From the IMG/VR virus record IMGVR_UViG_2534681936_000017, positions 1 to 42,567 of that record: a DNA stretch of 42,567 nt; one strand, given 5' to 3'. The notes beneath the pieces are model-generated. The model did no database searches. It worked only from the letters and a program-made list of their open reading frames with translations, and had not been told where the DNA came from. The position numbers and the translations under genes are program-made. Source of the DNA: a virus. Lineage: Duplodnaviria > Heunggongvirae > Uroviricota > Caudoviricetes. Position 1 is the first letter of the stretch; every line of letters begins with the position of its first letter. Positions 6,304 through 38,700 of this stretch are shown here, piece by piece.

Positions 6304-6315
6304 TGTACATGTACA
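6304..6315. promoter_or_regulatory. Perfect 12-bp palindrome TGTACATGTACA, candidate Phd/Doc operator
   Basis: Lies 12 nt upstream of the phd start codon on the coding strand. Confidence 0.35.
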
Positions 6316-6372
6316 GATTAGCGCATATTCAAGATGAGAGAGCAATGATTAATACAGTTGTGTTGGTAAAGA

Positions 6373-21449: not shown

Positions 21450-22001
21450 TTAGCCCATCATTTTTCTATACGCCTCTGCAGCCTGCTCCGGCGTTAAGTT
21501 GGTAATTTCTGTTCTGACTGGTCCTCCATCAGCGCCAGTCACTTCATTTTTGACGTTGTCTTTAAACGCCTGAACAGAAACATGACGCCCAAGCAACTCA
21601 AGGTTTTTAACCTTATCAGGCCATTTGATTTTCTTCAGAAGTGCGGCGCTATCTGCGGATACCATCTCCACGACATCCATTCCTGATAGCGTTGTGCGCC
21701 ATACCTTAGGCCAGTCTTTAATGGGCTTTAGCTCACCGTTTTGCAGGAGAATGTCGAGCACATCCATCTGGTCGATTTCAATAAGGCGATTAAGTACATA
21801 TTCTGCATTAATACCAACAAGATCATTGCGTTGCGCTTTCAGTTCAGCGATTCTGAATTGTATGTCAGGTTTTGACAGGTTTTCGTATGCGGTACGGTTA
21901 GCTGTCTTTGCGCTGTACCCCGCCCGAATAGCCGCTTGCGTGGCGTTTAAATCGATGAGGTACTCGCGACAGAACATTTCTTGCTTGTCGGTGAGTGCCA
22001 T
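21450..22001 (-). CDS. Terminase small subunit
   Basis: 183 aa; N-terminus [30 protein letters not shown] is typical of one small-terminase family. Confidence 0.8.
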
Positions 22002-22020
22002 TGATATACCTGAGGAAATT

Positions 22021-22569
22021 ATGAAGTTAGAAGATTTCGCAGCTTATAACCGCCCTCAATCTAAGGTGTCCGATGAGAGGAAATTTCTTGATTACATTCA
22101 CAGTCGGAACAGATGGGTTGAGTTTATCAAAAGCATCGATAACGCAAAGCCAGTATCAATTGCCATGAAAAATTCATTCCATAGTCAATGGGTTGAGTCT
22201 GGGGCCTTTATACGTGAAAAGATCAACGACGACTCAATTCTCCTCAAACTATTAACGCTCTTATTGCCAACATATGATGGTGACAGCCTTGTACTTTATC
22301 GGGGAGAAAATAAAGACAGGTTCGATAAAGGGCTCATTGGATTTTGCTGGACAACGGACATTTCAGTCGCCGAGAAGTTTGGTCGTGGATTGAATGCATA
22401 CAAATCACCAGGTTTGCTGTTAAGAGCTGAAGCTCCAGCCTGTTCTATATTAGCTGGCCCCAATGCCCACAGTCGTTATCTTGGTGAAAATGAGTTCACG
22501 GTTAACCCCTCGCGTCTTTCAAACATAACCGTTATTGAAACCTATCCGGACAACTCTTTTTTCAGATGA
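22021..22569 (+). CDS. Putative mono-ADP-ribosyltransferase-like protein (R-S-E type motifs), antisense moron between lysis and terminase genes
   Basis: 182 aa from ATG 22021 (RBS GAGGAAA). Motifs: LYRGE (R94), GFCWTTDISVAEKFG (STS-like, aa 108-121), YLGENEFTV (E156-x-E158). No signal peptide. Family call is motif-based inference only. Confidence 0.4.
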   Translation: MKLEDFAAYNRPQSKVSDERKFLDYIHSRNRWVEFIKSIDNAKPVSIAMKNSFHSQWVESGAFIREKINDDSILLKLLTLLLPTYDGDSLVLYRGENKDRFDKGLIGFCWTTDISVAEKFGRGLNAYKSPGLLLRAEAPACSILAGPNAHSRYLGENEFTVNPSRLSNITVIETYPDNSFFR

Positions 22570-22701
22570 TGAATAAATAGATGCCCTATACTTCACCCGC
22601 CACTGGTACGCCGTTTCGATAGCCTCCCAGTCCGGTTTTGCCATGAATTTTTCCTCTTAGTGACATTATCGAAGCCCCTTATCAAAGGAGCTTCTGTAAT
22701 G

Positions 22702-22887
22702 TCAGTCCCGAACGAACGTAACCTTCGTGTTTGTCGCTCGCCGTACAAGGCGCGCCGCTTCGCGTTGCATTTCATCGATAACTTTTGGCGTCATCGGCTG
22801 ATGCGCATATTTACGTTCAATCTCTGCAAAAATCCCGTTCATCGTTTCGCTGTCTGGTGGGATAACTTCAACGTTTAATCGTGCCAT
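22702..22887 (-). CDS. Small hypothetical protein after Rz1
   Basis: 61 aa with normal composition, in late-operon orientation, convergent on the ART-like gene; weak RBS. Confidence 0.35.
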   Translation of the reverse strand: MARLNVEVIPPDSETMNGIFAEIERKYAHQPMTPKVIDEMQREAARLVRRATNTKVTFVRD

Positions 22888-24342: not shown

Positions 24343-24445
24343 TGCCGGGGCCAGATGGAGTGCCAGATTAAGCTTCTGGCGGTATATACTCGTGTTTGAT
24401 ATCGTTAAATCGCCAAAAGTAACAATTCAAACAAAGAGGATTTTT

Positions 24446-24607
24446 ATGTCTGAAAAAAACAAGCCACAAGGTGAAAATAAACCTCAGCAACCCGTGGCAC
24501 CAAAACCAACTCCAACACAAAGTACTGCAGACTTTGCTACACGTCGTGTTTTTGTTGGAGATTCTGCCGACTCAGTCATTGAACATATAAAAAAACAGCC
24601 GAGATAA
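24446..24607 (+). CDS. Small Pro/Gln-rich hypothetical protein (53 aa), convergent with the membrane protein gene
   Basis: Strong RBS AAGAGGA 5 nt before ATG 24446; MSEKNKPQGENKPQQPVAPKPTPTQ...; 3' end overlaps the 3' end of the minus-strand gene by about 30 bp. Below the track size cut-off as an independent ORF. Confidence 0.45.
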   Translation: MSEKNKPQGENKPQQPVAPKPTPTQSTADFATRRVFVGDSADSVIEHIKKQPR

Positions 24608-25145
24608 ACATCGCAGCTACCGGAGCAAGGATGGTATACATCCTTGCTTTATCGAGACTCGTGCGGATTTTCTCATTTTCCAACAGTAACTCTCTTGCTG
24701 TATCACTCAAGTCAACAAGGCGATACCTTCGTATAAGCGGCAATAACTTATCAGGTCCTAAATATCCTGCATCAGCGAATATTTTAAAGCTCGAGGGCAC
24801 CATATCCTTATATTTTTCATGATATAGATGATCAGGAGGGGCATTGATCAGGCCCCTAACCTTCACAGATAAACCAGTACATACCAAGTAAATGGCGCAC
24901 CATGTCCATAGTAATGTAAATGTGGTAATTCCAGCGGTGAGAAAATCGAAATTAGTTTTCTGTGTCAGCAATAAAAAAGATGAGCCAATTCCAACAATCT
25001 GAATGTTCAGAAGTTTGTATCCATTCTCAACATTGGTTTTGTTAGAAAGATGAATCTCTCGTATCGTCTCTTCCCCTTGTTTTTCAAGGTAATCGACGAG
25101 TTCATCATCTACTCCTAAAAAATAATCTTTAGGTAGTTCTCTCAT
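24576..25145 (-). CDS. Membrane protein of unknown function (moron between Q and holin)
   Basis: 189 aa, strong RBS GGAGGTGA; hydrophobic segments at about aa 45-60, 67-91 and 169-189; AT-rich locus with flanking terminators. Confidence 0.6.
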   Translation of the reverse strand: MRELPKDYFLGVDDELVDYLEKQGEETIREIHLSNKTNVENGYKLLNIQIVGIGSSFLLLTQKTNFDFLTAGITTFTLLWTWCAIYLVCTGLSVKVRGLINAPPDHLYHEKYKDMVPSSFKIFADAGYLGPDKLLPLIRRYRLVDLSDTARELLLENEKIRTSLDKARMYTILAPVAAMFISAVFLYVQ

Positions 25146-26728: not shown

Positions 26729-26811
26729 ACGTAGTTTTCCCTGAATCCAGACACTTTCCAGCGTAGTGAGACGAAGGTGTTCTCCGCTTTTTCCTGTATT
26801 CGTTGGGTAAA

Positions 26812-27102
26812 TCACAAATATCCCTCCTTTCTCCAGATTTCTTGTGTGCGAAAAACACCTTCTGCATGCATCAGGCGTAATTCTTCTTTGGTGTAATCGC
26901 TGGTTTTTACCCGCCCGTCGATTAGATCGTGGCATGAGCTACAGGCAATCGCCGCCTGCATATCGTGTGGTTTTGTCGCTGTTCCGCACGTTCCCGCCAG
27001 TCGGTAATGCGCCAGCACAGACGTTTCCGGATCGTGATTGCAGTAGCCAGGAATTCTGACGGTGCACATCTGCCCCCGCGCCGCTTTACGTAAATCCACC
27101 AT
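26812..27102 (-). CDS. Small Cys-rich zinc-binding-type Nin-region protein (YbcO-like, putative)
   Basis: 96 aa with several Cys/His (CNH, C..C, CSSCH); position upstream of Q. Confidence 0.45.
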   Translation of the reverse strand: MVDLRKAARGQMCTVRIPGYCNHDPETSVLAHYRLAGTCGTATKPHDMQAAIACSSCHDLIDGRVKTSDYTKEELRLMHAEGVFRTQEIWRKEGYL

Positions 27103-27701
27103 TACGCAAACTCCAGCAGCTGCGCGGCCACATTTTCGACTTCCTCCGGAGAGGAGAATTTACGGAACAGGATCCAGTTCCACAGCACATTCAGTACGGC
27201 TTTATAAACCTGCTGAAACTCGGTTTCGTCCATATTCGCAAAAGCAATGGATTTCGCCCGACGCCCGTGGCTACCGTCCGGATAAATATGCTCGGTGTAA
27301 AATCCGGCCTGAATGGTTACCCATTCGCGGAAAGCGTCAAATGACTTGAGCAATGCCGTATCCCGGGTTCTGCGTGTCGCAACGGCATTCAGATATTGCT
27401 CTGCGGCTTCGCTCAGGGCTGGAGTGTGTTCCCGACCAACTGATTCGCACAGATACTCAACGAAGCCTGATACCAGTTCTCGTTCTCGAGGCGTGATCGC
27501 CCCACCGTTCGGAGTCCAGTAATCGAATCCCAGTTGCAGGAGTTTGAAAAAACGCTTGTGGAACGCGTAGTTACGCACTCGCTTAAAGTCCGCGTGTATC
27601 CACTCACCTATTTTGATTTGATGCAAAAAATCGCAACTCTCCGGCGTCGCCGGGAGAAGTAATCCGGAAGAGGTTTGTTTGACCAGTTGTATGTGCGCCA
27701 T
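27102..27701 (-). CDS. Nin-region hypothetical protein
   Basis: 199 aa, translationally coupled (ATGA) to the downstream gene. Confidence 0.45.
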   Translation of the reverse strand: MAHIQLVKQTSSGLLLPATPESCDFLHQIKIGEWIHADFKRVRNYAFHKRFFKLLQLGFDYWTPNGGAITPRERELVSGFVEYLCESVGREHTPALSEAAEQYLNAVATRRTRDTALLKSFDAFREWVTIQAGFYTEHIYPDGSHGRRAKSIAFANMDETEFQQVYKAVLNVLWNWILFRKFSSPEEVENVAAQLLEFA

Positions 27702-27772
27702 CGTAGTTCTCCGCTGGCGCAGTAGAATGGGTGTTCAGCCCGTTATGTAGTATACCAGAATTAATGCCAATA

Positions 27773-28024
27773 CTAACAGGATGCTCTGACTCGCAATTCA
27801 TCCAGCAGTTTATCATTTCCCATAATGTCACTTACCCTCATCGGTAAAAAAATTGCCTTTCGACCATTACGATACATCATTGATTTTGGGGTTTCAGGAA
27901 AGTAATCCATTTCGACTATAACTGACAGGTCATCACGACGTATGACTGCATATTTACTACTAAATAGTTTCTTTATTTTTTCCACGATGCCTCCAGGTTT
28001 ATAAGTACAAACGGTTATATCCAC
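27773..28024 (-). CDS. Rem-like small protein (Qin prophage rem-like, putative)
   Basis: 83 aa; sits beside hok as rem does beside hokD in Qin; AT-rich upstream region. Confidence 0.45.
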   Translation of the reverse strand: MDITVCTYKPGGIVEKIKKLFSSKYAVIRRDDLSVIVEMDYFPETPKSMMYRNGRKAIFLPMRVSDIMGNDKLLDELRVRASC

Positions 28025-28168
28025 ATAGAGACAAAAATATTAATCTGAAAAATATTTATTTCACGTCGTATATTTGATTATTTAATGTGCAGGTACAATG
28101 ACTTTTATTTTTTGTTGTGTATATAATCAAATATATGGTTATTTTTCACCCTGCGCATTCAGCACGCA

Positions 28169-28193
28169 ACAAAAAACCCGCCGAAACGGGTTA
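28169..28193 (-). terminator. Rho-independent terminator after hok
   Basis: Minus strand aacccg-N6-cgggtt hairpin followed by TTTTTTG, about 70 nt after the hok stop. Confidence 0.4.
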
Positions 28194-28262
28194 AATGCGG
28201 GTGCGTTGAGGATGCCTGACACATCAGAGGTGGCGGGGGATTTCGCCCCCGCCGGGTCACTC

Positions 28263-28418
28263 TTACTTCTCAGATTCGTAGTCTACGAAGACAGCGACCT
28301 CCGTCTGGCCGGTTCGGATTCGTACCTCGCAGAGGTCTTTCCTCGTTACCAGTGCCGTCACAATGACGGTTAAACAGATGACGATCAGGGCGATTAACAT
28401 CGCCTTGTGCTGCTTCAT
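28263..28418 (-). CDS. hok: Hok/Gef-family type I toxin
   Basis: MKQHKAMLIALIVICLTVIVTALVTRKDLCEVRIRTGQTEVAVF... is the Hok/HokD signature. Track ORF 28263-28475 extends upstream in the same frame. Confidence 0.85.
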   Translation of the reverse strand: MKQHKAMLIALIVICLTVIVTALVTRKDLCEVRIRTGQTEVAVFVDYESEK

Positions 28419-28439
28419 AGACTGCTCCTCCTTGCCTTT

Positions 28440-28540
28440 CGGCACGTAAGAGGCTAACCTATGTGTGTAGAGCATAGATATGGCCTCAGATTAATGTTAA
28501 GCGTCTTGCAGGACGCGTAATGTTAACTGGGGCTTTTCTC
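28440..28540 (+). ncRNA. sok: Sok-like antisense RNA (approximate placement only)
   Basis: Inferred from hok/sok locus organisation: antisense to the hok leader around the translation initiation region. Ends not determined. Confidence 0.3.
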
Positions 28541-28708
28541 TGTCTGCCTTACAGTGGCATGCCCGAGGCAGACAGCCTCAAGCACCCGCAGCAATTTTAC
28601 TTAACTCCCCTTTTCCCGCAAACCGTTTTTATCCCCAGCGGCAAATCGAATACACCACCAGCGCCACCGCCATTGCGATTCCTGCCGTTGTGAATGCTTC
28701 AGGCCAGG

Positions 28709-29098
28709 TCATCGCAAAACATCCTCCGCGCTTATCAGTTCGTTCCGCTTCAGGTAGTCCATCGCCTTCTCCGGTAATTTGCAGTCTGGATTAGCTTTTT
28801 TCAGTTGACTGACCAGTCGTTTAACCCACATTGTTAATTCGCCAACCTGGTTGCCAGGTGCTGGTGGAGCTGCATATAACGGCACCCACTTTGGCGCTTT
28901 ATCCCCGACCGAACGCTGATACCAGTCACCCGGTTTGTATTCATAAAACTCACCAACCGGCTCTGCCTCCAGCGATGCCAGTGCAATGTTGAATAACTCA
29001 CCCTCTACCCGTGCCAACCCTGAATTGGGGTGGCATTTCGCAATCGCTATTTTTAATTTGGCCTCTTCGATTAATTGCTCTTTGGTTAATTCAGTCAT
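28709..29098 (-). CDS. Hypothetical protein (Nin-region)
   Basis: 129 aa ORF with coherent composition. Confidence 0.5.
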   Translation of the reverse strand: MTELTKEQLIEEAKLKIAIAKCHPNSGLARVEGELFNIALASLEAEPVGEFYEYKPGDWYQRSVGDKAPKWVPLYAAPPAPGNQVGELTMWVKRLVSQLKKANPDCKLPEKAMDYLKRNELISAEDVLR

Positions 29099-29193
29099 TT
29101 TTCATTACCGCCCTTTCGGGCGGCCTCCTGATGATTTGAGGGTGCAGAAATCCCTCCGGTTAAGGATTAAATTTTTAACAGTGCTAAATTTAA

Positions 29194-29550
29194 TTATTCA
29201 GTTCTGGATTTTGTCGCCCTGCGTATCCGCGCTTTCGCGTTACGCTCAATCTGAATTAACTTTTCTATATTTTTCCGCCTTTCCTGTTCTTCCTGGCGCA
29301 ATAGCTTTACATCATCTGCCAGTCTGGTTTCTCTTTTCGCCACAGAGAGCATCCAGTCAAATGGCTCCACAACTGCACCGCAGATTTTACAGCGGACCTG
29401 GCGCTCTTTTTCGTCAACCCGGACAGAAGCGTGATGGCAATATGGTCTTTCCGATGGCTCATAAAGAAAATTAACCTGATTACGAGGGTCATCCTCTTTT
29501 ATCGGAAATAAAACGATATTGCTTAACTCATCCTCTGGTTTTATTTCCAT
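29194..29550 (-). CDS. Hypothetical protein with CxxC motif
   Basis: Start at ATG 29550 with strong RBS AAGGAGAGGAGC; contains YCHH and CKIC. Confidence 0.5.
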   Translation of the reverse strand: MEIKPEDELSNIVLFPIKEDDPRNQVNFLYEPSERPYCHHASVRVDEKERQVRCKICGAVVEPFDWMLSVAKRETRLADDVKLLRQEEQERRKNIEKLIQIERNAKARIRRATKSRTE

Positions 29551-29607
29551 GCTCCTCTCCTTTGATGCGAATGCCAGCGGCAATTGAAGCCTGATAGCTA
29601 ATTTCAC

Positions 29608-30030
29608 TCACAGTACCGCCTCCTGAAAATTACCCTGATAGAAAGCCAGTACACGCTGCATAGCTTCGCTCTTCCGGCACTCGCGACAGATTATATTCAG
29701 ACGCCTGTCGTAGCGGCGTATCTCTCCATCTGGTAATGACCAGATAAGGTCCGGATCAACCACAGATGGTTTCTTCAGCTTTGCCCTGGATAGTTTTTTG
29801 CGGGCGTTTTGCCAGTCCTTACGGGCCTGTTCAGACGGAAATAACCCGTAACCAGAGTTGTATACATCGCCACTGGCAACAAGCTCTCTGGCGAGAACGC
29901 TCATCAGATATCTTGTCGCACCTGTCTTGGCTTCCAGTTGCCGTAACGTCTCGCGCCCACTCCGGCGTACTAGCTCAACAACCTGCCCTTTAATTTTTTC
30001 CCGCTCTTCTTGTGTAAATACTTTTGCCAT
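29608..30030 (-). CDS. Hypothetical protein
   Basis: About 140 aa, translationally coupled to the upstream gene. Confidence 0.45.
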
Positions 30031-30766
30031 AAGCGCCCCCGGCAATCACTTTTCCGACACAATACGACTGGAGGAATCGACAATCTGTCGGACAATATCC
30101 CGGTGCTTGTTCAGCTCCCGCAGCGCGGCGCAGCTCGCGGTTTGCCATATGCAGCGATGGTAAAATCAGGTCATCCGCTTGCATTTCAGTAAACGATGGC
30201 AACGACTGCACAATGTCCGCCACAGTTTCTGTTTTAATATCTTCCTGTGTTGCCGCTTCCTGTACTGGTAACGCAACACCTGCGGGCTGAGGAAAGGCCT
30301 TACCATCAGTTTCCGTTACCGATGCAGCTTTCGGCTCTGCTGGTAAATTATCGCCCGGTATGCAGTAACGAAATTTACCGTTCTGATTTACGCGAATCAG
30401 ACGCCCCTTGCTGATTGCCATTGCCAGCGTTGAAGCTACTTTGCGTGATGTGGTACCGAACAACGCAGCCAGCTCATCCGCCGTTTGTGGTCCGCGTTGT
30501 TCAATCGTCGCGGTTAAATCGCACTCTGAGATTTTCGCTACTGTTGCCGTGGTGGTTTCTTCCGGCTGTTCTTCCGGCGCTGGCTGTTCCTGCTGAACGT
30601 TGTTATCAGCCACACGCCAGGTGTACGCGCTTTTATCAACGAAACCAGCTTTTTTCAGTTCCCATAGTTCGTTCAGCACTTCTTCACGACTGATATCAAG
30701 TCGCGCAGCAAGTTCTATGGATGTGGCTTTTCCCATTGCTTTCAGTGCGTCAAAAACAGTCTCCAT
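29990..30766 (-). CDS. Hypothetical protein with N-terminal winged-helix-like domain and acidic linker
   Basis: Start ATG 30766 (RBS GGGAG); N-terminus [30 protein letters not shown] is HTH-like; directly after the DnaC-like gene (YdaW position). Confidence 0.5.
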
Positions 30767-30788
30767 TAAATTTTTCTCCCGGTAAAAA

Positions 30789-31535
30789 TTACTTCGCAAT
30801 TCCTGGCTGGACGACATTCGGACGCCAGCTCTCCCAGTTAAAATTCACCCAGCGTCCGCCGTTCATGGTCATGCGATCCATAACCCGCTCGCCGAGCAAT
30901 GTTTTCATGGCCTCATAGTTCAGGTTTGTCAGCATTCCCACGCTGCGCATCGACGCTGTCCGGCGATCAACAATCTGGTGCAGTACCACCTGCTCGTTTT
31001 TCGTCTCGCGCTGAATGCCAATTTCATCAAGAACCAGCAGATCCACTTCGCACAGTTCCCGCAAAAATTTTTCGCCTGACTGCCCGTCGTCATAGCTGGC
31101 GTGCAGGGCGCTCATAACATCAGCCACGGTAACCACAATCACTGTCTGACCGTCTTTCAGCAGGCGATTCCCGATAGCTGCCGCTAAGTGGTTCTTCCCG
31201 GTACCAGGTTTTCCGCTGAACGCAAAATTTGTACACCCGGACATCAGTTCATCAGCGATGGATTTCGCCTGGCTCAACGCGTATCGCTGACCGTCGTTCT
31301 GCACCTGGTAATTCGCAAACGAGCATTTGCGGTGCAACGGCTGGATGCCAGAGCGATTCAGGATTTTTTCCACCCGCAACTGACGATTCAGGCGGTTGAT
31401 CTCCTCGCTACGTTTCTGGCCTTCAGCAAGTTGCCACTCGCGCCACTCCGCAACCGTTCTGAATGGGGCGGTTACATGTGGTGGGGTCAGTCTGCGAATT
31501 CGCTCCAGAACGCCTCCTGTCGCAATATTTTTCAT
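30789..31535 (-). CDS. DnaC-like helicase loader (AAA+ ATPase)
   Basis: 248 aa; Walker [16 protein letters not shown] and Walker B LLVLDEIG. Confidence 0.8.
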
Positions 31536-31541
31536 GGTCTG

Positions 31542-32324
31542 TTACCCCCTGAAGCCTGGCGGGATCGCACTGTCCGGCAACGAGACGGTGTTAACCTGTC
31601 GGAGCAACGTCTCAGGCCGAACACCTTTCGGCGCGAACAGGCCCTGGTATTCATTGGCGATGCTGTGTCGAATCACCTGCTCAGGTGTAAAACCCTGCTG
31701 ACGGAATTTTTCCAGTTCCCGTATCGCCCCGTTAGCGCCCTGCTCCGTTCGAATCGGTTTTCGCAATGCCTGTCTGAACCGGACCCACTCATGCCAGAGT
31801 GTTTCCGGCAACCAATCGGGCAGCTCAATAGCCTCCGGCTCGAACTTTTTAGACGCTCGTTTTTGCCGAGGGGGATTTAGGGGGAGATCAGTATTTATAT
31901 CTTCCTCTTCCTCTGGTAACGCTTTTTGATCCGTTTGTGTAACGCTGACAGCGTTACCTTTTCGTTTCAGTTCGCGTATTTTTGTTACTCGCTCGTTTGT
32001 AACCGCCCGTTTTTTAGAGCTTTTTCCGTTATGACGTTCAAAGTTAGGTAGAGAAAGCCCACCGTCATTTTCGACCAGCCATCCAACCTGAATTAACGCA
32101 TCAGCAAAACCAGCCATAAAAGTAATGCGATCTATTGCACTTTTTGTAACGCCGCGAGCGTTACAATCTGCGTTACCGTCTATCATTTGTTGATCCGCCC
32201 ATGCCCAGAAGCGAATAACCTTCCCTAATGCGGCATCTGGATCAATATTCAGAATCTCAGCAAGCCTGAATATTTCCGGCTTATCCGGCGTAATAACCTC
32301 GAGCTTTATCCAGTTTGAAGCCAT
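31542..32324 (-). CDS. Replication initiator / replisome organiser (O-like, putative)
   Basis: 260 aa immediately upstream of the DnaC-like gene; basic C-terminal half. Confidence 0.6.
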   Translation of the reverse strand: MASNWIKLEVITPDKPEIFRLAEILNIDPDAALGKVIRFWAWADQQMIDGNADCNARGVTKSAIDRITFMAGFADALIQVGWLVENDGGLSLPNFERHNGKSSKKRAVTNERVTKIRELKRKGNAVSVTQTDQKALPEEEEDINTDLPLNPPRQKRASKKFEPEAIELPDWLPETLWHEWVRFRQALRKPIRTEQGANGAIRELEKFRQQGFTPEQVIRHSIANEYQGLFAPKGVRPETLLRQVNTVSLPDSAIPPGFRG

Positions 32325-32401
32325 TTGTTTTCACCTTGTAACGCTCACAGCGTTACATTTAACTGATACCGAACAAAACAATCCGGCACGATTAATTTCA
32401 A

Positions 32402-32824
32402 TCAATGCACTACGACAGAATCGCCGGGCGACCCACCACCGCTGAAATGTGCTTTCCGGTAAACGGCCTGGACTGCATCATCATGCGCATCAATTGCCGT
32501 ACTCAACGCTTCCTGCGCCGCCAGTAATGCACGGCGTTCCAGGGTATCGAAGATGCAGAGTCGGTGACGCAGCTCGCGCGGAAGAATTGCCAGAACCGCA
32601 GGGATCAGTTTCTGAATTTTTTCCCTTTGCGCTTTCGTTTCACCTTTCAACCAACGGTGATAGATATTCTGCTGATTGTTCCAGTCCTTGCCTGGTACCA
32701 GGGGCAATTCGCCGCCCCCCTGGCGCAGATATTCTTCAGTAATTGCGTTAGCGACCCACGCCTGCCCTTTTTCGGCTGCCAGGGCTAACAACACTGATTC
32801 GATGTGCTCATGCCTGATTTTCAT
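32402..32824 (-). CDS. YdaT-like protein (Rac-type cII-position gene)
   Basis: 140 aa directly after the Cro-like gene, overlapping its stop. Confidence 0.5.
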   Translation of the reverse strand: MKIRHEHIESVLLALAAEKGQAWVANAITEEYLRQGGGELPLVPGKDWNNQQNIYHRWLKGETKAQREKIQKLIPAVLAILPRELRHRLCIFDTLERRALLAAQEALSTAIDAHDDAVQAVYRKAHFSGGGSPGDSVVVH

Positions 32825-33063
32825 GAATCAACCGCTCCTATGCTGTTTTCGCTATGCTTACCGTCTGGGGGGAATACATCGTCAAGTCCACAATGAGCGC
32901 CAAGCCGATTAAGGGTAGAAACAATTTTTCTGCACTCCTCTAGTCCTGGGGTACGAAAATTTGCTTCGTAATTTGCCAGTCGGCTTTGTATCCACCCTAA
33001 CTGAACAGCGAGTTGTCTTTGAGACAACCCAAGCTGTTTTCGATATGTTGAAATTTTGTTCAT
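32821..33063 (-). CDS. Cro-like HTH regulator (YdaS-like)
   Basis: 80 aa; HTH QLGLSQRQLAVQLGWIQSRLANYE; divergent from the repressor gene. Confidence 0.7.
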   Translation of the reverse strand: MNKISTYRKQLGLSQRQLAVQLGWIQSRLANYEANFRTPGLEECRKIVSTLNRLGAHCGLDDVFPPDGKHSENSIGAVDS

Positions 33064-33087
33064 TGAAAACCTCCGATGACAATTTTA

Positions 33088-33148
33088 AACACACCTTGTG
33101 TTATATGGTCAAGCTGTTTTGTGTTTTATGTAAATCACGATTCGTGAT
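33088..33148. promoter_or_regulatory. Operator/promoter region: palindromes AACACACCTTGTGTT (33088-33102) and ATCACGATTCGTGAT (33134-33148)
   Basis: Two dyad-symmetric sites in the 96-bp divergent intergenic region between the Cro-like and CI-like genes. Confidence 0.45.
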
Positions 33149-33159
33149 ACAAGGATGCA

Positions 33160-33579
33160 ATGGAAAAAGAAAACGAAAAAATTGCCGCTAGTAGGCTCAA
33201 TGACAAAATTGCAATGCGTCTTAAAGAGCGCAGGCAGAAGCTTGGTTTATCTCAAGGAAAACTTGCTGAAATCTGCGGATGGACGCAATCGCGTATAGGT
33301 AACTATGAGGCGGGCAGCAGAAATGTTGGAGTGCATGACGCTGTCGTATTGGGAAAGGCACTTGGCATATCTCCCCCTGAGCTCCTCTTTGGAGAACAGG
33401 AATCTTCTGAATTGTGGTTAAATGAATCCCAACGAAAACTTCTTGAGTTGTTTAACCAGCTACCGGGCTCAGAACAACAACGAATGATTGAGCTATTTGA
33501 AGTCCGGCTAAAAGAAATCGATGAGTATGTAGAAAAATATTTGAGAGGCAGGCTTAAAGATAATCCCCCACCGGAGTAA
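33160..33579 (+). CDS. CI-like prophage repressor (XRE-family HTH, RacR-like)
   Basis: 139 aa; HTH LGLSQGKLAEICGWTQSRIGNYEAG; divergent from cro-like gene; own terminator downstream. Confidence 0.75.
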   Translation: MEKENEKIAASRLNDKIAMRLKERRQKLGLSQGKLAEICGWTQSRIGNYEAGSRNVGVHDAVVLGKALGISPPELLFGEQESSELWLNESQRKLLELFNQLPGSEQQRMIELFEVRLKEIDEYVEKYLRGRLKDNPPPE

Positions 33580-33608
33580 TGATCTTGCTATCACAGTAAT
33601 ATGCCAAT

Positions 33609-33634
33609 CAGCCCGCTATCAGCGGGCTTTTTTG
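33609..33634 (+). terminator. Rho-independent terminator after the repressor gene
   Basis: gcccgct-atc-agcgggc hairpin followed by TTTTTTG. Confidence 0.6.
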
Positions 33635-33884
33635 TACCATCATCATATGACACTCACCACAAAACACATTTCGTGTTGACATAAGAAAACGCATTGTGTT
33701 TAATAAGCATATCCAAACAACGCCCCACCAGAGAACGGCAGGACAATACCTCGAGTTATCCAGCCACTGAACAGGGCTAAGTAGCCAGCCTGAGGCATAC
33801 GAACATGACGGCAGTTGTTGATTGATACAAAGCGCAGTAGATAAAACGTTCCGCCACCCGGCGTTAAGGGGAAATGAGGTCAAC

Positions 33885-34040
33885 ATGGATACTATCGATC
33901 TTGGCAACAACGAATCTCTGGTATGTGGCGTGTTTCCCAATCAGGACGGCACATTCACCGCCATGACGTATACCAAAAGCAAAACGTTTAAAACCGAAGC
34001 TGGCGCACGTCGTTGGTTGGGAAGACATTCAGGTGAGTAA
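33885..34040 (+). CDS. Small protein (YdaF-like, 51 aa)
   Basis: ATG 33885 with RBS GAGG; MDTIDLGNNESLVCGVFPNQDG... Confidence 0.4.
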   Translation: MDTIDLGNNESLVCGVFPNQDGTFTAMTYTKSKTFKTEAGARRWLGRHSGE

Positions 34041-34041
34041 A

Positions 34042-34245
34042 ATGAACGAGACAGAATTAAAACACGTTATCGCTCTACTCCTGGAAGATGCAAAACGCCT
34101 CCAGCAACTGGAGCCAAATGCAGGCACTGGGGCACGCATCTGGCTGGCTAAAGAAGCACTGGAATCTGGCGATTATGATAGCGAAGAAGCCTTCTACAAA
34201 GCAGAAGGCCGTGCAGGATATTCACCGGGTCTTGGCGGGGTATAA
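34042..34245 (+). CDS. Small acidic hypothetical protein (67 aa)
   Basis: ATG 34042 with RBS AGGTGA; 3' end overlaps the convergent minus-strand gene by 24 bp. Confidence 0.4.
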   Translation: MNETELKHVIALLLEDAKRLQQLEPNAGTGARIWLAKEALESGDYDSEEAFYKAEGRAGYSPGLGGV

Positions 34246-34512
34246 ATACCATGCGCATTGACTGAATTCGCAAACAAAAACAGACGCGCGATACCTGGAT
34301 AGTCGGTCTGCATAGTCAGATATCTGGCTGCGAATTTGATAAATATCACCGCCCTTTTCGGAAACATAAGTTCCGTCCGGGAGTTGATTATACGAACCAT
34401 CTCCATGGGGGATCGTTCTCCTGAATCCTAGTGAGAGCATATATTTATGAAGCCCTTCGTAATCCTCTGGCTCAGCATTATATAGTTCTACTCTGGCGAG
34501 ATACGTTGGCAT
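34222..34512 (-). CDS. VapD/Cas2-like small protein (putative endoribonuclease fold), antisense moron in the sieB position
   Basis: 96 aa from ATG 34512 (RBS AAGGAA, 6-nt spacing). Pattern TYLARVEL...YEGLHKYMLSLGF...HGDGSY resembles the VapD beta1-alpha1-beta2 N-terminus. Weak, motif-level inference. Confidence 0.35.
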   Translation of the reverse strand: MPTYLARVELYNAEPEDYEGLHKYMLSLGFRRTIPHGDGSYNQLPDGTYVSEKGGDIYQIRSQISDYADRLSRYRASVFVCEFSQCAWYLYPAKTR

Positions 34513-34750
34513 ATTCATTTCCTTACTGGTTGTGTGAGAACTTCAGTAAAGATACCACCAAAGCCCGGAGGTGGTGAAATAAAACCGGGCACAACACGAA
34601 GGCGCATTTCCGGTATTCATAAAGAGTCGGTCTTGTCTGTTAAATTTAAATGGTGGGAGTGCGCCTCCGGTTGTAAATAACGACATTGCTGTGTGTAGTC
34701 TTTAGCGGCATCAGTTCTACTCCGTGGCTGCCCTGCCGCCCCTTTTTAAA

Positions 34751-34892
34751 GTGAATTTTGTGATGCGGTGAATGCGGCTAAGCGCACGCGGCACAGTTAA
34801 AAGCATCAGTGTTATGGGTGGATTATCCGGCGTTAATTGTTAACTGGTTAACGTCACCTGGAGGCACCAGGCACCGCATCGACAAAATTCAT
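34751..34892. repeat. Inverted repeat pair (about 20 bp arms, 19/20 with one indel) flanking a 100-bp spacer upstream of kilR
   Basis: gtgaattttgtgatgcggtg (34751-34770) versus reverse complement of caccgcatcgacaaaattcat (34872-34892); right arm ends 20 nt before the kilR RBS. Confidence 0.5.
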
Positions 34893-34912
34893 TTGTAAAA
34901 ATGGAGATAATT

Positions 34913-35134
34913 ATGATTGCTCATCACTTCGGAACTGATGAAATACCACGTCAGTGTGTGACCCCTGGCGATTATGTTCTTCATGAAGGTCGGACATATA
35001 TCGCCTCGGCAAACAATATTAAAAAGCGAAAACTTTATATTCGTAGCCTGACTACAAAAACATGCATTTCTGACTGCATGATTAAAGTCTTCCTCGGTCG
35101 TGATGGTTTACCTGTAAAGGCGGAGTCATGGTAA
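34913..35134 (+). CDS. kilR: KilR-like host-killing protein (cell division inhibitor)
   Basis: 73 aa from ATG 34913 (RBS GGAGA); [26 protein letters not shown]... matches Rac KilR as recalled. Confidence 0.65.
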
Positions 35135-35304
35135 TGACTAAGAAAATAAAATGTGCTTATCACCTTTGCAATAAAGAAATTGAAGAAAGCAAAATCATTA
35201 CAAGACCACTTCATTTCATGCGTGGAGTTATACCAACGACGGAAATGAAAAAATATTGTAGTGAAATCTGTGCCGAAAAAGACCAGATGGCACACGAACT
35301 TTAA
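35134..35304 (+). CDS. YdaE-like small zinc-ribbon protein
   Basis: 56 aa, not in the ORF track (below size cut-off); [18 protein letters not shown]...CSEICAEKDQMAHEL; ATG overlaps kilR stop. Confidence 0.5.
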   Translation: MTKKIKCAYHLCNKEIEESKIITRPLHFMRGVIPTTEMKKYCSEICAEKDQMAHEL

Positions 35305-35378
35305 TTAACTGACTATCCGAAACTGAATTTATGCCAGCAATGGCAGGGATTCGCTCAACCTTAATTAAGGAGAAAAAC

Positions 35379-35654
35379 ATGATTACCAGTTATGAAGCCA
35401 CTGTTGTTACTACTGATGACATTGTTCACGAAGTCAGCCTGGAAGGAAAGCGTATTGGCTACGTGATTAAGACAGAAAATAAAGAAACCCCATTCACTGT
35501 GGTTGATATCGACGGTCCATCAGGCAACGTTAAAACACTTAACGATGGTGTTAAAAAAATGTGTCTGGTGCACATAGGAAAGAATCTGCCCGCAGAAAAA
35601 AAAGCCGAATTTCTGGCAACTCTGATTGCAATGAAATTAAAAGGTGAAATCTGA
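35379..35654 (+). CDS. RacC-like protein
   Basis: 91 aa from ATG 35379 (RBS AAGGAGA); immediately upstream of recE-like gene. Confidence 0.5.
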   Translation: MITSYEATVVTTDDIVHEVSLEGKRIGYVIKTENKETPFTVVDIDGPSGNVKTLNDGVKKMCLVHIGKNLPAEKKAEFLATLIAMKLKGEI

Positions 35655-35753
35655 AAAAAAGAAAGCCTGCACACTGTGCAGGCCTGAGTGAAGAACCTGG
35701 GACATTTATTCATCACTCGCAGTAATTTTAATCTGAGTTGAGGTTAAAAAACA

Positions 35754-38700
35754 ATGAGCACCGATAAACAAGTTTACCCACTGTATTACGAAGCAAAAAA
35801 TGACAAAGTAAGAAAACGTCTCGGTATTAAAGGCGGTTTCTACTGGGCTGAAGCGAAAAAATTATCCATTGCCATCTCCCGTGGTGCTGTTGCGATTGAC
35901 GATGCTGGCTACGATGAAGATGACTTTAAAAAACCTGTTCGCGTCAATTTGCCCGTTGTTGATGACCTTCCACCAGAAGGCGTATTTGATACGGAATTCT
36001 GCAACCGTTACGAAAAAGGCGGGGAAGATGGCATCACAATGGTATTTATCGCGCCCTCATCCTCTGCGCAGGACAAACCAGCCAGCACTGACAATACCAA
36101 TGTTAATGGCGAAGACATGACTGAGATTGAGGAGAATATGCTACTCCCGATTTCTGACCAAGAGCTGCCCATTCGCTGGCTTGCTCAACACGGCAGCGAA
36201 AAACCGGTAACGCACGTTTCACGCGACGAACTCCAGACATTACATATTGCACGGGCTGAAGAACTACCAGCTGTTACTGCCCTGGCTGTTTCCCACAAAA
36301 CCAGCCTGCTCGACCCGCTGGAGATTCGCGATCTTCACAGACTGGTTCGTGATACTGACAAAGTTTTCCCTAATCCAGGCAATTCAAGTCTGGGGCTGAT
36401 GACTGCTTTTTTCGAAGCATACCTGGACGCAGACTACACCGATCGCGGTCTGCTGACAAAAGAGTGGATGAAAGGAAATCGTGTTTCACGCATCACTCGC
36501 ACGGCTTCCGGTGCTAATGCTGGCGGCGGGAACCTCACCGATCGCGGCGAAGGTTTCGTCCACGATCTGACGTCACTGGCACGCGATGTAGCCACTGGCG
36601 TACTGGCCCGTTCAATGGACGTGGACATTTATAACCTTCATCCGGCACACGCTAAACGTGTCGAGGAAATTATCGCTGAAAATAAACCGCCCTTTTCTGT
36701 TTTCCGCGACAAATTCATCGCCATGCCTGGCGGGCTGGATTATTCCCGCGCCATCGTGGTTGCGTCCGTAAAAGAAGCACCAATTGGGATCGAGGTTATC
36801 CCCGCACACGTCACTGAATATCTGAACAAAGTACTGACTGAAACCGATCATGCCAACCCTGATCCGGAAATCGTAGATATTGCCTGCGGTCGCTCCTCTG
36901 CCCCGATGCCGCAGCGGGTAACAGAAGAAGAAAAACAGGATGATGAAGAAAAACCGCAACCATCTTGCGCAATGGCAGATGAACAGGCAACGGCTGAAAC
37001 AGTGGAACCGGATGCAACTGAACATCATCAGGACACGCAGCCGCTGGATGCTCAGTCACAGGTAAATTCTGTTGATGCGAAATATCAGAAACTGCGGGCA
37101 GAACTCCATGAAGCCCGGAAAACCATTCCGCCCAAAAATCCTGTCGATGCCGACAAATTGCTGGCTGCCTCTCGCGGAGAATTTGTTGAGGGGATTAGCG
37201 ACCCGAATGATCCGAAATGGGTGAAGGGGATTGAAACCCGCGATTCAGTGAACCAGAACCAACAAGAATCGGAACAGAACGACCAGAAAGCGGAACAAAA
37301 CAGCCCAAATGCGTTACAAAACGAGCCAGAAACGAAACAGCCTGAACCAGTGGCGCAACAGGAAGTGGAAAAAGTTTGCAATGCCTGCGGTCAGTCTGGC
37401 GGGGATAACTGCCCTGACTGTGGTGCGGTGATGGGCGACGCAACATATCAGGAAACATTCGATGACGAGAATCAGGTTGAAGTTCGGGAAAATGAGCCGG
37501 AGAAAATGGAAGGCGCTGAACATCCGCACAATGAGAATGCTGACAGCGATCCGCATCGCAATTGCAGTGATGAAACTGGCGAAGCGTCAGCTCCTGTAGC
37601 AACTGAAATCATGTGGCCGTCATATTTCGAGCCAGGCCGCTATGAAAACCTCCCGAACGAGGTTTATCACTCCGCCAACGGAATAAGCAGCACGATGCTG
37701 AAGGATGCCCGTATCAGCCTGATGTATTACCACGGGCGGCACATTGCCGGAACTATTCCGAACGAGGAAAGTGATGCACTGCTGCGTGGGCGGATCATTC
37801 ACAGCTATGTTCTGGAAACGGATAAATTCGCTGATGAATATGCCATTCCGGTACCGGTTCCTGAATATGTGGTTACTACTTCTAACGAACTGATCGCCAT
37901 CATTAAAAAACACAATGCCAGTCTGCCAGCACTGATGACACCAGAGCAGATGAAAGAGTGGATCGAAAGCTACAACAGCACTCTTATACAGCCACTGTCT
38001 GTAAGTGCTGGGGCCGAAGAAACAGGCATCCTTTACGGTTCGCTTCCGGTGGAATTTCGGCGTATTCCTGAGGGGGAAAAACACACAGCATCAGCAATGA
38101 AAGCCTGTATTAAAGAATACAACGCAAGCCTCCCTCCTCTGTTGAAAACCAGTGGAGCACGGGAGCAGCTTCTGGATCAAATTGAAACTGTAGATCCAGA
38201 ACTGGCAAAAAAAGAACGTGCTAAATCTTTGCCTTACAACATCAGTGGCACAAAAGAGCAATTAACCGAAATCGCACGGAAAATTCGCCCGGAACTGGTG
38301 ACACTGGAGGACTGGCAAAAACGCCAGCAAGAAGAAAACGCCGGGAAAACGTTTATCAGTCCGGATATGTATGAACAGGCAAAAAATATTCACGCGGCAC
38401 TGCAAAACAATACCGATGCAGCAAGGCTACTCAACCACCCGGATCGCAAATCTGAAATCAGCTATTTCGGGTTTGATGAAGAAACCGGGCTGGAAATCAG
38501 GGTCCGTCCTGATATCGAAATCCGGCTGCCATACGAAAGCATTTGCGCTGACGTGAAGTCAGTCAGCCTCGGTTATGTGCGGCAGGAACGACTTAAAGAT
38601 CGCCTGCACCGTGAAATTATTGAGCGTGATTATCACCTCAGCGCCGCAATGTATTGCGATGTGGCAAACCTGGACAAATTTTTCTGGATCTTCGTCAACA

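What the first reader, a model, noticed from the sequence alone, without database searches (positions are those of the whole stretch)
22021..22887. Antisense moron between lysis cassette and terminase encodes a compact protein with ADP-ribosyltransferase-like R / STS / ExE motifs
The 182-aa plus-strand product (ATG 22021) carries, in the correct order, an aromatic-Arg motif (VLYRGE, R94), a GFCWTTDISVAEKFG block resembling the STS region of C3/iota/VIP2-type toxins, and YLGENEFTV (E156-x-E158 followed by hydrophobics) resembling the ARTT-loop catalytic motif. It has no signal peptide, and it is the only gene in the late region transcribed against the late operon, the slot lambda uses for bor. 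A cytoplasmic ART expressed from a lysogen could be a defence or abortive-infection effector, an anti-defence factor, or a toxin; the convergent 61-aa ORF (22702-22887) is a candidate partner. I could not match it to a named enzyme.
Basis: partly seen in the sequence, partly recalled or inferred. Interest (0 to 1): 0.8.

Follow-up and report, generated by a model that had tools for sequence, protein, structure and literature searches.

The report
Solitary ADP-ribosyltransferase-like prophage moron gene
A small gene that reads against the late genes of an E. coli prophage very probably encodes an NAD-using protein-modifying enzyme from a large family no database annotates, found alone on phages, plasmids and genomic islands, so it is a good but untested candidate weapon in conflicts between bacteria and mobile elements.

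Summary
ORF 22021-22569 (+) is a real 182-aa gene (RefSeq WP_000762847.1, "hypothetical protein"). It is under purifying selection (dN/dS 0.13-0.31), has low GC, and lies 19 nt from the divergent terS start.

The ART reading is supported.
- In 62 homologues down to 25% identity, R94, W110 and [ST]111 are invariant. E156 is kept in 60/62 and E158 in 57/62.
- These residues sit on predicted β1, β2 and the start of β5, as in R-S-ExE ARTs.

No Pfam, NCBIfam, PADLOC or PDB-sequence model detects the protein. The family has about 1000 clusters at 50% identity, almost all single-domain proteins of 160-280 aa.

There is no conserved partner in 43 loci. The 61-aa ORF belongs to the lysis module and occurs without the ART gene. 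In enterobacterial prophages the gene always travels with the Terminase_2 terS. Elsewhere it sits in phage early regions, plasmid and ICE arrays of small ORFs, or beside R-M, SIR2, Mrr, CBASS and Abi genes.

Whether it acts in defence or counter-defence is unresolved. It is a new, unannotated family of a known enzyme kind. A copy identical at 181 of 182 residues is present in E. coli B derivative strains.

The parts
22021..22569 (+). CDS of the 182-aa ART-like protein (WP_000762847.1); stop codon included
   Evidence: dN/dS 0.13-0.31. AF2 pLDDT 91.8. ART-fold hits.
22021..22284 (+). N-terminal all-helical region (residues 1-88) with conserved W32, W57, R65, D71, L78, P83, Y85 and G87. Presumed to support the active site or recognise the target.
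   Evidence: Helices 4-9, 18-28, 32-40, 47-68 and 71-81 in the model. Conservation.
22285..22566 (+). ART-fold core (residues 89-182): β1 90-97, β2 109-111, helix 114-122, β3 131-138, β4 143-145, β5 158-161, β6 167-175
22300..22302 (+). R94 codon ([YF]-R-G-[ED] motif on β1)
   Evidence: R in 62/62 and G95 in 61/62 homologues. hhalign lines it up with the R of ModA's LWRG motif.
22348..22353 (+). W110-T111 codons (W-[TS] at the end of β2, the 'STS' equivalent), followed by the helix carrying A117 and F120
   Evidence: W 62/62; T 42 + S 20 = 62/62; A117 62/62; F120 56/62.
22486..22494 (+). E156-N157-E158 codons (ExE at the loop/β5 junction)
   Evidence: E156 60/62 and E158 57/62 in the wide family. 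In the close subfamily E156 is 40/40 and position 158 is E or Q.
22012..22016 (+). Shine-Dalgarno-like GAGGA, 5-9 nt before the ATG
   Evidence: Read from the sequence. It is retained, with ATGAAG, in the deletion variant L040.
21450..22001 (-). Terminase small subunit (Terminase_2), divergent from the ART gene with a 19-nt gap. This is the only recurrent neighbour, and only in enterobacterial prophages.
   Evidence: Pfam 1.2e-39. The same divergent pairing at about 20 nt is seen in loci L008, L020, L023, L056, L062 and L064.
22605..22644 (-). 5' remnant (MAKPDWEAIE.AY) of a different 249-aa terS. It marks the recombination joint between the lysis module and the ART+terS packaging module.
   Evidence: (H73).
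22702..22887 (-). 61-aa late-operon ORF (WP_000113283.1, phrog_12811). It belongs to the lysis module and is not a partner of the ART gene.
   Evidence: It is present without the ART gene in L076, is truncated by the ART deletion in L040, and is absent next to homologues elsewhere.

Best explanation
**What it is.** The gene encodes a solitary, cytoplasmic mono-ADP-ribosyltransferase of the R-S-ExE type. It belongs to a large protein family that no public profile library annotates.

**How it should work (inferred from the R-S-E clade).** R94 on β1 and [ST]111 on β2 hold NAD+. The E156-x-E158 pair at the start of β5 activates the ribose-nicotinamide bond. ADP-ribose is then transferred to a macromolecule; an ExE pair usually means an arginine on a protein. 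The conserved N-terminal helical bundle probably completes the pocket or selects the target.

**How it is carried here.** The gene is accessory cargo. It sits at the outer edge of a terS (Terminase_2) packaging module and reads against the late operon. It must therefore be transcribed on its own, in the lysogen or immediately after DNA entry. Late transcripts would run antisense across it.

**Likely role.** No immunity or antitoxin gene accompanies it in any context. Its target is therefore probably not an essential protein of the carrier cell, but a component used in conflicts between the cell and mobile elements. My committed reading is that it benefits the resident element and its host, by ADP-ribosylating a factor that an incoming phage or plasmid needs (exclusion or defence).

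**Shown versus inferred.** Shown: the ORF, selection on it, motif conservation, predicted fold class, absence of a partner, and mobility of the gene. Inferred: NAD+ use, transfer chemistry, acceptor type, timing of expression and biological role.

**Confidence by level.** About 0.8 that it is a catalytically competent ART-fold enzyme. About 0.6 that it is a conflict effector. About 0.4 that the direction is defence or exclusion.

For: **Motifs.** R94 62/62, G95 61/62, W110 62/62, [TS]111 62/62, A117 62/62, E156 60/62, E158 57/62. They fall on β1, on β2 plus the following helix, and at the start of β5. hhalign places LYRGE on the LWRG of T4 ModA and sWT..vAemFArGL on ModA SASYDKNIALHFASGL, at E 0.012-0.039.

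**Real, selected gene.** dN/dS is 0.13-0.31. The family has 1009 clusters at E<=1e-3 and 679 at <=1e-10.

**Solitary.** Clustering of neighbours over 23 loci, plus inspection of neighbours at 20 viral loci, finds no recurrent partner except terS in enterobacterial prophages.

**Mobile accessory cargo.**
- It is present in about 91 of 5426 complete E. coli genomes.
- One strain has a clean 730-bp deletion.
- Another strain has different cargo in the same slot.
- Low GC.
- It occurs on plasmids, ICE or island arrays and IMG/VR prophages.

**Leaning towards defence.**
- It lies next to type I R-M in two loci, an MmeI-like enzyme, SIR2_2 plus Mrr, CBASS, Abi_2 and SLFN_AlbA_2.
- It is a lone insertion among housekeeping genes in three chromosomes.
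- It is kept intact (181/182) in a defective prophage of E. coli B derivatives.
- It is absent from 50,697 sequenced phage genomes.
- It is antisense to the late operon.
Against: - No sequence profile (Pfam including the Mod family PF26816, NCBIfam, PADLOC, PDB sequences) detects the protein.
- In 13 of 40 close relatives E158 is Q while E156 is invariant. This is the reverse of the classical [QE]-x-E rule, so the assignment of the catalytic Glu is uncertain.
- No promoter was found, so expression in the lysogen is an inference.
- To my knowledge, all characterised defence ARTs (DarT, CmdT, ParT) have an antitoxin, whereas solitary phage ARTs (Alt, ModA, ModB, AcrIF11) are offensive.
- In a second phage group the gene sits in the early operon after the DnaB-like helicase, near an orphan DNA methyltransferase. 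In plasmids and ICEs it sits in co-directional arrays of small ORFs. Both fit counter-defence better.
- Only about 6 of 22 non-prophage loci showed recognised defence genes, and I have no background rate.
Confidence: 0.45

Rival explanations
1. Counter-defence or host-takeover effector. Like T4 Alt/ModA/ModB or the anti-CRISPR AcrIF11, the enzyme would ADP-ribosylate a host protein, either a defence component or the transcription/translation machinery. This would help the incoming phage, plasmid or ICE establish itself. A constitutive promoter would fire on DNA entry, before late transcription.
For: - It is solitary with no immunity gene, as in all characterised offensive phage ARTs (my knowledge; Iyer et al. 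2022, PMC9503650).
- Its size and layout resemble ModA (200 aa: N-terminal helices, then LWRG, SAS, EQE), with weak hhalign support.
- In IMG/VR phages L068-L075 it is co-oriented in the early region after the DnaB-like helicase, near an orphan DNA methyltransferase.
- It sits in co-directional arrays of small unknown ORFs beside integrases on ICEs and on IncP-like and Burkholderia plasmids, with two paralogues on pPA35.
- An Acb2/Tad1-hairpin anti-defence gene occupies the adjacent slot in a Pantoea prophage.
Against: - It is absent from all 50,697 sequenced phage genomes, virulent ones included.
- It occurs as a lone chromosomal gene with no mobile-element hallmarks nearby.
- It lies next to or downstream of R-M, SIR2/Mrr and CBASS genes.
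- It is intact in a defective prophage.
- No Aca-like regulator is adjacent.
- On pPA35 the array lies downstream of the relaxase operon rather than on the traK side of oriT. By analogy with RP4, from my memory, that is not the leading side.
Confidence: 0.3
2. NAD+-consuming toxin (NADase or abortive-infection effector). It would be held inactive by its own N-terminal domain or by a non-adjacent factor, and released on phage infection to deplete NAD+ or poison the cell.
For: - The NADase toxins Tse6 and Tne2 and the ART toxins TreX, TreTu, RhsP2 and Tre1 are among the structural hits.
- The N-terminal domain is conserved.
- Some loci have defence-island neighbours.
Against: - There is no immunity or antitoxin in 43 loci.
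- The complete R / [ST] / ExE set is typical of transferases rather than pure NADases.
- The gene persists at 99-100% identity in many E. coli genomes, including laboratory B strains, without an obvious cost.
- There is no PADLOC hit.
Confidence: 0.1
3. A non-catalytic or differently catalytic ART-fold protein, for example a binding or decoy protein, or an enzyme acting on a small molecule or nucleic acid, as Arr, DarT, Scabin or Tpt1 do.
For: - The E158Q subfamily shows that the classical catalytic position can change.
- No sequence model of any protein-modifying ART family matches.
Against: - The H-H-h and H-Y-E signatures of Tpt1, Arr and DarT-type enzymes are absent, while the R-[ST]-ExE set is near-invariant.
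- R-S-E-clade structures align over the longest stretches, 103-119 residues.
Confidence: 0.1
4. A secreted or injected virulence toxin aimed at eukaryotic cells, like the phage-borne CT, LT-II, C3 or ArtAB.
For: - Phage-borne ART toxins are often encoded near the lysis and terminase genes (PMC9503650).
- The window comes from an O55:H7 EPEC-lineage strain.
Against: - There is no signal peptide and no B subunit or translocation partner.
- The family is spread over environmental Proteobacteria (Methylomonas, Polaromonas, Desulfobotulus, Pandoraea, Acetobacter, Enterovibrio) and is present in E. coli B laboratory strains.
Confidence: 0.03

Closest known systems
T4 ModA / ModB (Mod family of R-S-E ARTs, Pfam PF26816)
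   Same: - Phage-encoded, solitary and cytoplasmic, about 200 aa.
- N-terminal helices followed by [LW/LY]RG on β1, an S/T motif followed by an A..F helix, and ExE followed by hydrophobic residues and P (ModA EQEVMIP; here ENEFTVNP).
- hhalign puts the first two motifs in register.
   Different: - The Pfam model for Mod does not hit it, and hhalign E is only 0.012-0.039, with ModB not significant.
- Mod genes are early genes of virulent T-even phages. This gene is an antisense moron of a temperate prophage and also lives on plasmids, ICEs and chromosomes.
- ModA has a long insertion before the ExE.
C3 / VIP2 / iota / Vis / Certhrax-type R-S-ExE mono-ARTs (Pfam ADPrib_exo_Tox)
   Same: - Same predicted fold class, with the longest structural alignments (Vis 115, C3 106, VIP2 104, HopU1 119 residues).
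- Same order and placement of R, S/T and ExE, with an aromatic residue (Y153) three positions before E156, as in ARTT loops. The ARTT comparison is from my memory of those families.
   Different: - No signal peptide, no binding component and no eukaryotic target context.
- W-[TS] replaces S-T-S.
- E156 is more strictly conserved than E158.
AcrIF11 (anti-CRISPR ADP-ribosyltransferase)
   Different: - Only 60 residues align, with 15% identity.
- To my knowledge AcrIF11 is a diphtheria-toxin-like ART without the R-S-ExE set.
- No aca-type regulator lies next to this gene, and no CRISPR link was seen.
ART toxins with cognate immunity or antitoxin (TreX/TriX, TreTu/TriTu, Tre1/Tri1, DarTG, CmdTAC, ParST)
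   Same: ART fold, with TreX and TreTu among the best structural hits. They also take part in bacterial and phage conflict.
   Different: Each of those has an adjacent neutralising gene or a delivery domain (Rhs/PAAR). This family has neither in 43 loci, and PADLOC finds nothing.
Lambda bor-type morons (antisense genes in the late region)
   Same: An independently oriented, low-GC, dispensable gene between the lysis and packaging genes of a lambdoid prophage.
   Different: It is not homologous to Bor, which is a lipoprotein. This gene is attached to the terS module with a fixed 19-20 nt divergent junction, conserved down to 47% protein identity.

Membership tests
ADP-ribosyltransferase superfamily (fold level) | Split β-sheet NAD+-binding core recognisable by structure comparison | tested here: met
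   [not shown]
R-S-E clade of ARTs | Conserved Arg on β1 (aromatic-R-G) | tested here: met
   R94 62/62, preceded by Y/F/W in 62/62 and followed by G in 61/62. It lies within strand 90-97.
R-S-E clade of ARTs | Conserved Ser/Thr (STS motif) at the end of β2, followed by a helix | tested here: met
   [TS]111 62/62 after invariant W110, in strand 109-111. Helix 114-122 carries A117 (62/62) and F120. Only one S/T is conserved, not three.
R-S-E clade of ARTs | Catalytic Glu ([QE]-x-E) at the ARTT loop/β5 junction | tested here: inconclusive
   E156 is 60/62 and E158 is 57/62 at the start of strand 158-161. In 13 of 40 close relatives position 158 is Q while E156 is invariant. This is the opposite of the classical pattern, so which Glu is catalytic is unclear.
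R-S-E clade of ARTs | The three motifs converge on one NAD+ pocket; NAD+ binding and ADP-ribose transfer | not testable with these tools
C3/VIP2-type exotoxins (Pfam PF03496) and other Pfam ART families | Match to the family HMM above the gathering score | tested here: not met
   No Pfam family at E<=1 for the protein. No ART-related family matched any of the 40 + 62 homologues; the only matches were isolated weak hits to unrelated families. No hit had a precomputed Pfam domain.
T4 Mod family (PF26816) | Sequence or profile homology to ModA/ModB | tested here: inconclusive
   The Pfam model is not matched, while ModA homologues do carry PF26816. hhalign against ModA gives E 0.012-0.039 with the R and S motifs in register. 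ModB gives E 0.24.
Toxin-antitoxin / toxin-immunity ART systems (DarTG, CmdTAC, ParST, Tre1-Tri1, Rhs-ART) | Adjacent conserved neutralising gene (macrodomain, ARH, antitoxin, chaperone) or a delivery domain | tested here: not met
   All-against-all clustering of neighbours in 23 loci, plus inspection of neighbours at 20 viral loci, finds no recurrent partner. Longer family members carry no known extra domain.
Catalogued anti-phage defence systems (PADLOC-DB 2.0.0) | Match to a defence-protein HMM | tested here: not met
   The only hit is a chance-level RT_UG26 match at E 0.024.
Defence-island resident genes | Enrichment next to known defence genes | tested here: inconclusive
   About 6 of 22 non-prophage loci have R-M, SIR2/Mrr, CBASS, Abi_2 or SLFN_AlbA_2 within 6 kb. 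The sample is small and I have no background rate.

The most novel reading that the evidence does not exclude
A single-gene defence system made of an ADP-ribosyltransferase alone, with no antitoxin. Carried by prophages, plasmids and defence islands, and sometimes wired next to type I R-M, it would protect the cell by ADP-ribosylating an invader's protein or nucleic acid, or a dispensable host factor that invaders need. The fixed divergent junction with terS would place it so that the prophage's own late transcription silences it during induction. To my knowledge this would be the first solitary ART immune effector. It would also mean that a natural defence gene sits unnoticed in E. coli B derivative laboratory strains.
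Probability: 0.3. Interest if true: 0.8.

Novelty: new member of a known kind. Interest (0 to 1): 0.55.

Why it matters
[quoted passage not shown] Known examples are Alt/Mod, DarTG, CmdTAC and AcrIF11.

This is a large family (about 1000 clusters at 50% identity) of compact, solitary ART-like proteins. Pfam, NCBIfam, PHROGs annotation and PADLOC all miss it. It rides on prophages, plasmids, ICEs and defence islands across Proteobacteria.

If it is active, it adds a new ART family. It would also be either a new partner-less kind of defence effector or a new counter-defence enzyme.

It is unusually easy to test. An orthologue identical at 181 of 182 residues sits in E. coli B derivative laboratory strains such as T7 Express. 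A natural clean-deletion allele also exists.

Tried and rejected
**Searches that found nothing.**
- Sequence-profile searches gave no ART or other meaningful hit: Pfam on the protein and on 40 + 62 homologues, NCBIfam, PADLOC, and phmmer/hmmsearch against PDB sequences. The protein A and DUF1778 matches to the A2 profile fall in gappy N-terminal columns and were discarded as compositional.
- The afdb50 fold library was unavailable.
- A profile search with A2 to bridge to annotated ART families found only more unannotated members.
- The ModA homologue search gave only three proteins, too few for a strong profile-profile test.
- tblastn against 50,697 phage records gave no match.
- Literature searches for both RefSeq accessions, and for prophage or plasmid ARTs, found no description of this family.

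**Technical dead ends.**
- The search for related loci with A1 failed because no conserved stretch was available. It worked with the smaller alignment A3.
- The mass PADLOC scan of 104 neighbour proteins was dominated by redundant type I R-M models. It added little beyond confirming R-M at two or three loci.

**Ideas rejected.**
- The 61-aa ORF as a partner.
- The plasmid "leading region" idea for pPA35. The array lies downstream of the relaxase operon.
- A specific promoter call. The strict scan found none. A relaxed scan found only a TTGTTT-16-TATATT element, in the Pantoea-type loci, that overlaps the terS start codon. It would leave almost no leader.
Full report
**1. The observation**

- The window is an E. 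coli prophage, 100% identical to strains O55:H7 DEC5A and FDAARGOS_946. RefSeq annotates the same CDS there as WP_000762847.1, "hypothetical protein".
- The gene lies 19 nt from the divergent start codon of the small terminase subunit (21450-22001, -; Pfam Terminase_2, 1e-39).
- Downstream of the gene's stop codon, all on the - strand, lie a 61-aa ORF, Rz1/LysC, Rz, endolysin and holin.
- GC falls to 0.39-0.44 over the gene, against 0.50-0.56 in the flanking genes.
- dN/dS against orthologues of 88% and 82% identity is 0.31 and 0.14. It is a real gene under selection.

There are small corrections. RefSeq annotates another antisense CDS, at 24392-24607, so this is not the only one. No consensus promoter or terminator was found.

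**2. Is it an ADP-ribosyltransferase?**

Sequence profiles are silent. Pfam, NCBIfam, PADLOC and PDB sequences give nothing. PHROGs gives only phrog_30882, "unknown function".

*Family size.* There are 49 relatives in the 90%-clustered database and 1009 clusters at 50% identity with E<=1e-3. Almost all are single-domain proteins of 160-280 aa, and none has a Pfam domain or an informative name.

*Predicted fold.* An AlphaFold2 model built on 40 homologues is confident (pLDDT 91.8, pTM 0.84). It has five N-terminal helices (to residue 81), followed by a β-rich core:
- β1 90-97
- β2 109-111
- helix 114-122
- β3 131-138
- β4 143-145
- β5 158-161
- β6 167-175

*Motif conservation.* The table gives counts in 62 homologues down to 25% identity.

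| Residue | Conserved in |
|---|---|
| R94 | 62/62 |
| G95 | 61/62 |
| G107 | 62/62 |
| W110 | 62/62 |
| [TS]111 | 62/62 |
| A117 | 62/62 |
| E156 | 60/62 |
| E158 | 57/62 |

- These are the most conserved positions of the protein. They sit where the R, STS and ExE motifs of R-S-E ARTs sit.
- T112 is not conserved.
- One anomaly stands out. In 13 of 40 closer relatives position 158 is Q while E156 is invariant. This is the reverse of the classical [QE]-x-E rule.

*Comparison with T4 ModA.* hhalign against ModA, taken from the T4 record, aligns LYRGE with LWRGV and the W-T..A..F block with SASYDKNIALHF. E is only 0.012-0.039, and ModB is not significant. The Mod Pfam model (PF26816) does not hit this protein.

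I conclude that this is a new, unannotated family of the R-S-E ART clade, with Mod-like size and layout. Membership of any named family is not established.

**3. Anatomy of the locus**

*Link to terS.* In every enterobacterial prophage that carries a homologue, the gene is divergent from a Terminase_2 terS with a gap of about 20 nt. This holds for loci L008 (47% identity), L020 (82%), L023, L056, L062 and L064, even where terL and the portal differ.

*The module joint.* Just past the gene's stop codon, 22605-22644 (-) encodes MAKPDWEAIE.AY. This is the first 13 residues of a different 249-aa terS that follows the same lysis module and the same 61-aa ORF in E. coli FDAARGOS_1289. The ART gene is therefore the outermost gene of a packaging module that recombined in at about 22605. 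The 61-aa ORF belongs to the lysis module, not to the ART.

*The slot is variable.*
- Strain FDAARGOS_1059 has a clean deletion of 22027-22756 that keeps the SD and ATGAAG.
- Strain KSC64 has an unrelated 90-aa + strand gene in the slot.
- Strain NRZ14408 has no divergent gene at all in the slot.

*Prevalence.* About 91 of 5426 complete E. coli genomes carry the gene. These include the E. coli B derivatives T7 Express Crystal and B-RalR. In T7 Express Crystal the protein is 181/182 identical and sits in a visibly degraded prophage.

*Consequence for expression.* The late operon must read through this region to reach terS, and no terminator was detected. Late transcripts would therefore be antisense to the ART mRNA. 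This is an inference.

**4. Contexts elsewhere**

No neighbour recurs across 23 loci, nor across the 20 further viral loci whose neighbours I inspected, apart from terS in the prophage group.

| Context | Example loci |
|---|---|
| Phage early region, co-oriented after a DnaB-like helicase, near an orphan DNA methyltransferase | IMG/VR L068-L075 |
| Long co-directional arrays of small unknown ORFs beside integrases (ICEs), or on IncP-like and Burkholderia plasmids; two paralogues on pPA35 | L003, L004, L011, L014 |
| Beside defence genes: type I R-M | L005 (47 nt downstream of hsdR, CBASS nearby), L029 |
| Beside defence genes: an MmeI-like enzyme | L028 |
| Beside defence genes: SIR2_2 plus Mrr_cat | L025 |
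| Beside defence genes: Abi_2 | L018 |
| Beside defence genes: SLFN_AlbA_2 | L007 |
| Lone insertion among housekeeping genes | L006, L033, L034 |

- The gene is absent from 50,697 sequenced phage genomes.
- In one Pantoea prophage, the slot beside it holds an Acb2/Tad1-hairpin anti-defence gene.

**5. Mechanism and role**

*Enzyme (about 0.8).* It is most likely an NAD+-dependent mono-ART, with R94 and [ST]111 holding NAD+ and E156/E158 catalysing transfer. By analogy with ExE enzymes, the acceptor would be a protein arginine.

*Role.* It has no immunity gene anywhere and sits intact in many genomes. It is therefore unlikely to hit an essential target of its carrier. I read it as a conflict effector (about 0.6).

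The direction is open.
- **For defence or exclusion (about 0.4):** the antisense, low-GC moron position; the neighbouring defence genes; solitary chromosomal copies; retention in a defective prophage; and absence from virulent phages.
- **For counter-defence or host takeover (about 0.3):** its solitary nature, as in Alt, Mod and AcrIF11; the early-operon and ICE- or plasmid-array contexts; and the ModA resemblance.
- **Less likely:** a gated NADase or Abi toxin (about 0.1), a non-protein-modifying or non-catalytic ART fold (about 0.1), or a eukaryote-directed toxin (about 0.03).

**6. Known background**

Iyer et al. 2022 (PMC9503650) already noted that phage ARTs are often encoded next to terminase and portal genes. 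Their examples include LT-IIa in phage Rac-SA53. They proposed co-packaging or action against immunity that targets the packaging apparatus. An ART beside terS is therefore a known theme.

What is new here:
- the family itself, which no public model covers;
- its antisense, independently transcribed arrangement, with a fixed 19-20 nt junction to terS;
- its wide spread as a solitary gene.

**7. Verdict**

- The proposed 61-aa partner is rejected.
- The function is unresolved but readily testable.
- Novelty: a new member (family) of a known kind.
- Interest: 0.55.

Noticed in passing
window 22519-22644 (-), joint near 22605: A 41-aa ORF starts MAKPDWEAIETAY, matching the first 13 residues of a 249-aa alternative terS. 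That terS follows the same lysis module in E. coli FDAARGOS_1289 (L076 1791-2540). It is a recombination scar and shows that the ART + Terminase_2 packaging module replaced another terminase module.
   Followed up: yes
L040 (E. coli FDAARGOS_1059) compared with window 22027-22756: A natural clean 730-bp deletion removes the ART gene except for SD + ATGAAG, together with the C-terminal part of the 61-aa ORF. It is a ready-made isogenic control and shows the gene is dispensable to the prophage.
   Followed up: yes
L041 (E. coli T7Express_Crystal, NZ_CP053594.1 3652962-3653510); also strain B-RalR: E. coli B derivative laboratory strains carry the gene (WP_000762846.1 in T7Express_Crystal, 181/182 identical). 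There it sits in a degraded prophage whose lysis region is broken after lysC.
   Followed up: partly
L039 (E. coli KSC64) 3077-3349 (+); L038 (NRZ14408): With a 97-99% identical terS, the slot divergent from terS holds an unrelated 90-aa + strand gene in KSC64. NRZ14408 has no divergent gene there. The position is a small cargo hotspot.
   Followed up: partly
L008 6638-6919 (-), Pantoea prophage: The late-operon gene between the lysis genes and the ART homologue is an Acb2/Tad1-hairpin protein (Pfam 4e-19), a known anti-CBASS/anti-Thoeris sponge family. It occupies the position that the 61-aa ORF holds in the window.
   Followed up: partly
A1 alignment, position 158 (members such as P0029, P0031, P0032, P0034, P0038-P0044): A clade of homologues, many in ICE arrays, has E-x-Q instead of E-x-E, with E156 invariant. 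This is the reverse of the classical [QE]-x-E pattern of R-S-E ARTs.
   Followed up: no
L068-L075 (IMG/VR contigs), around 5900-6400 in each: A second phage lineage carries a 46%-identical homologue co-oriented in the early region. It follows a DnaB-like helicase and phrog_35346, lies near an orphan DNA methyltransferase, and precedes a lysozyme 66-70% identical to the window's in most of these loci.
   Followed up: partly
L003/L017 (Pandoraea apista plasmid pPA35) 4962-5465 and 7305-7805: tblastn finds two matches to the ART protein on this IncP-like plasmid. They probably correspond to these two similar-sized genes, which lie within one co-directional array of small hypothetical genes downstream of the traJ-traI-traG-traF-topoisomerase operon.
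   Followed up: partly
window 24576-25145 (-) and 24392-24607 (+): A low-GC (0.37-0.41) 189-aa gene (phrog_11870, no Pfam, NCBIfam or PADLOC hit) sits on the upstream side of the holin gene. A RefSeq-annotated 71-aa antisense CDS overlaps it by 32 nt. This is another unexplained moron pair in the same prophage.
   Followed up: partly
window 5472-6310 (-): A Phd/YefM-Doc type II toxin-antitoxin pair is embedded among the baseplate and tail genes, in late-operon orientation (RefSeq annotation of the identical DEC5A prophage).
   Followed up: no
window about 26800-42000: The prophage is a mosaic. It has a Rac-like early region (integrase next to yebY, recE/recT, kilR, ralR, a frameshifted ydaT and a Hok/Gef gene). 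This is joined to a Mu- or SfV-like myovirus tail module with a Pin-invertible tail-fibre segment at window 1-1600.
   Followed up: no
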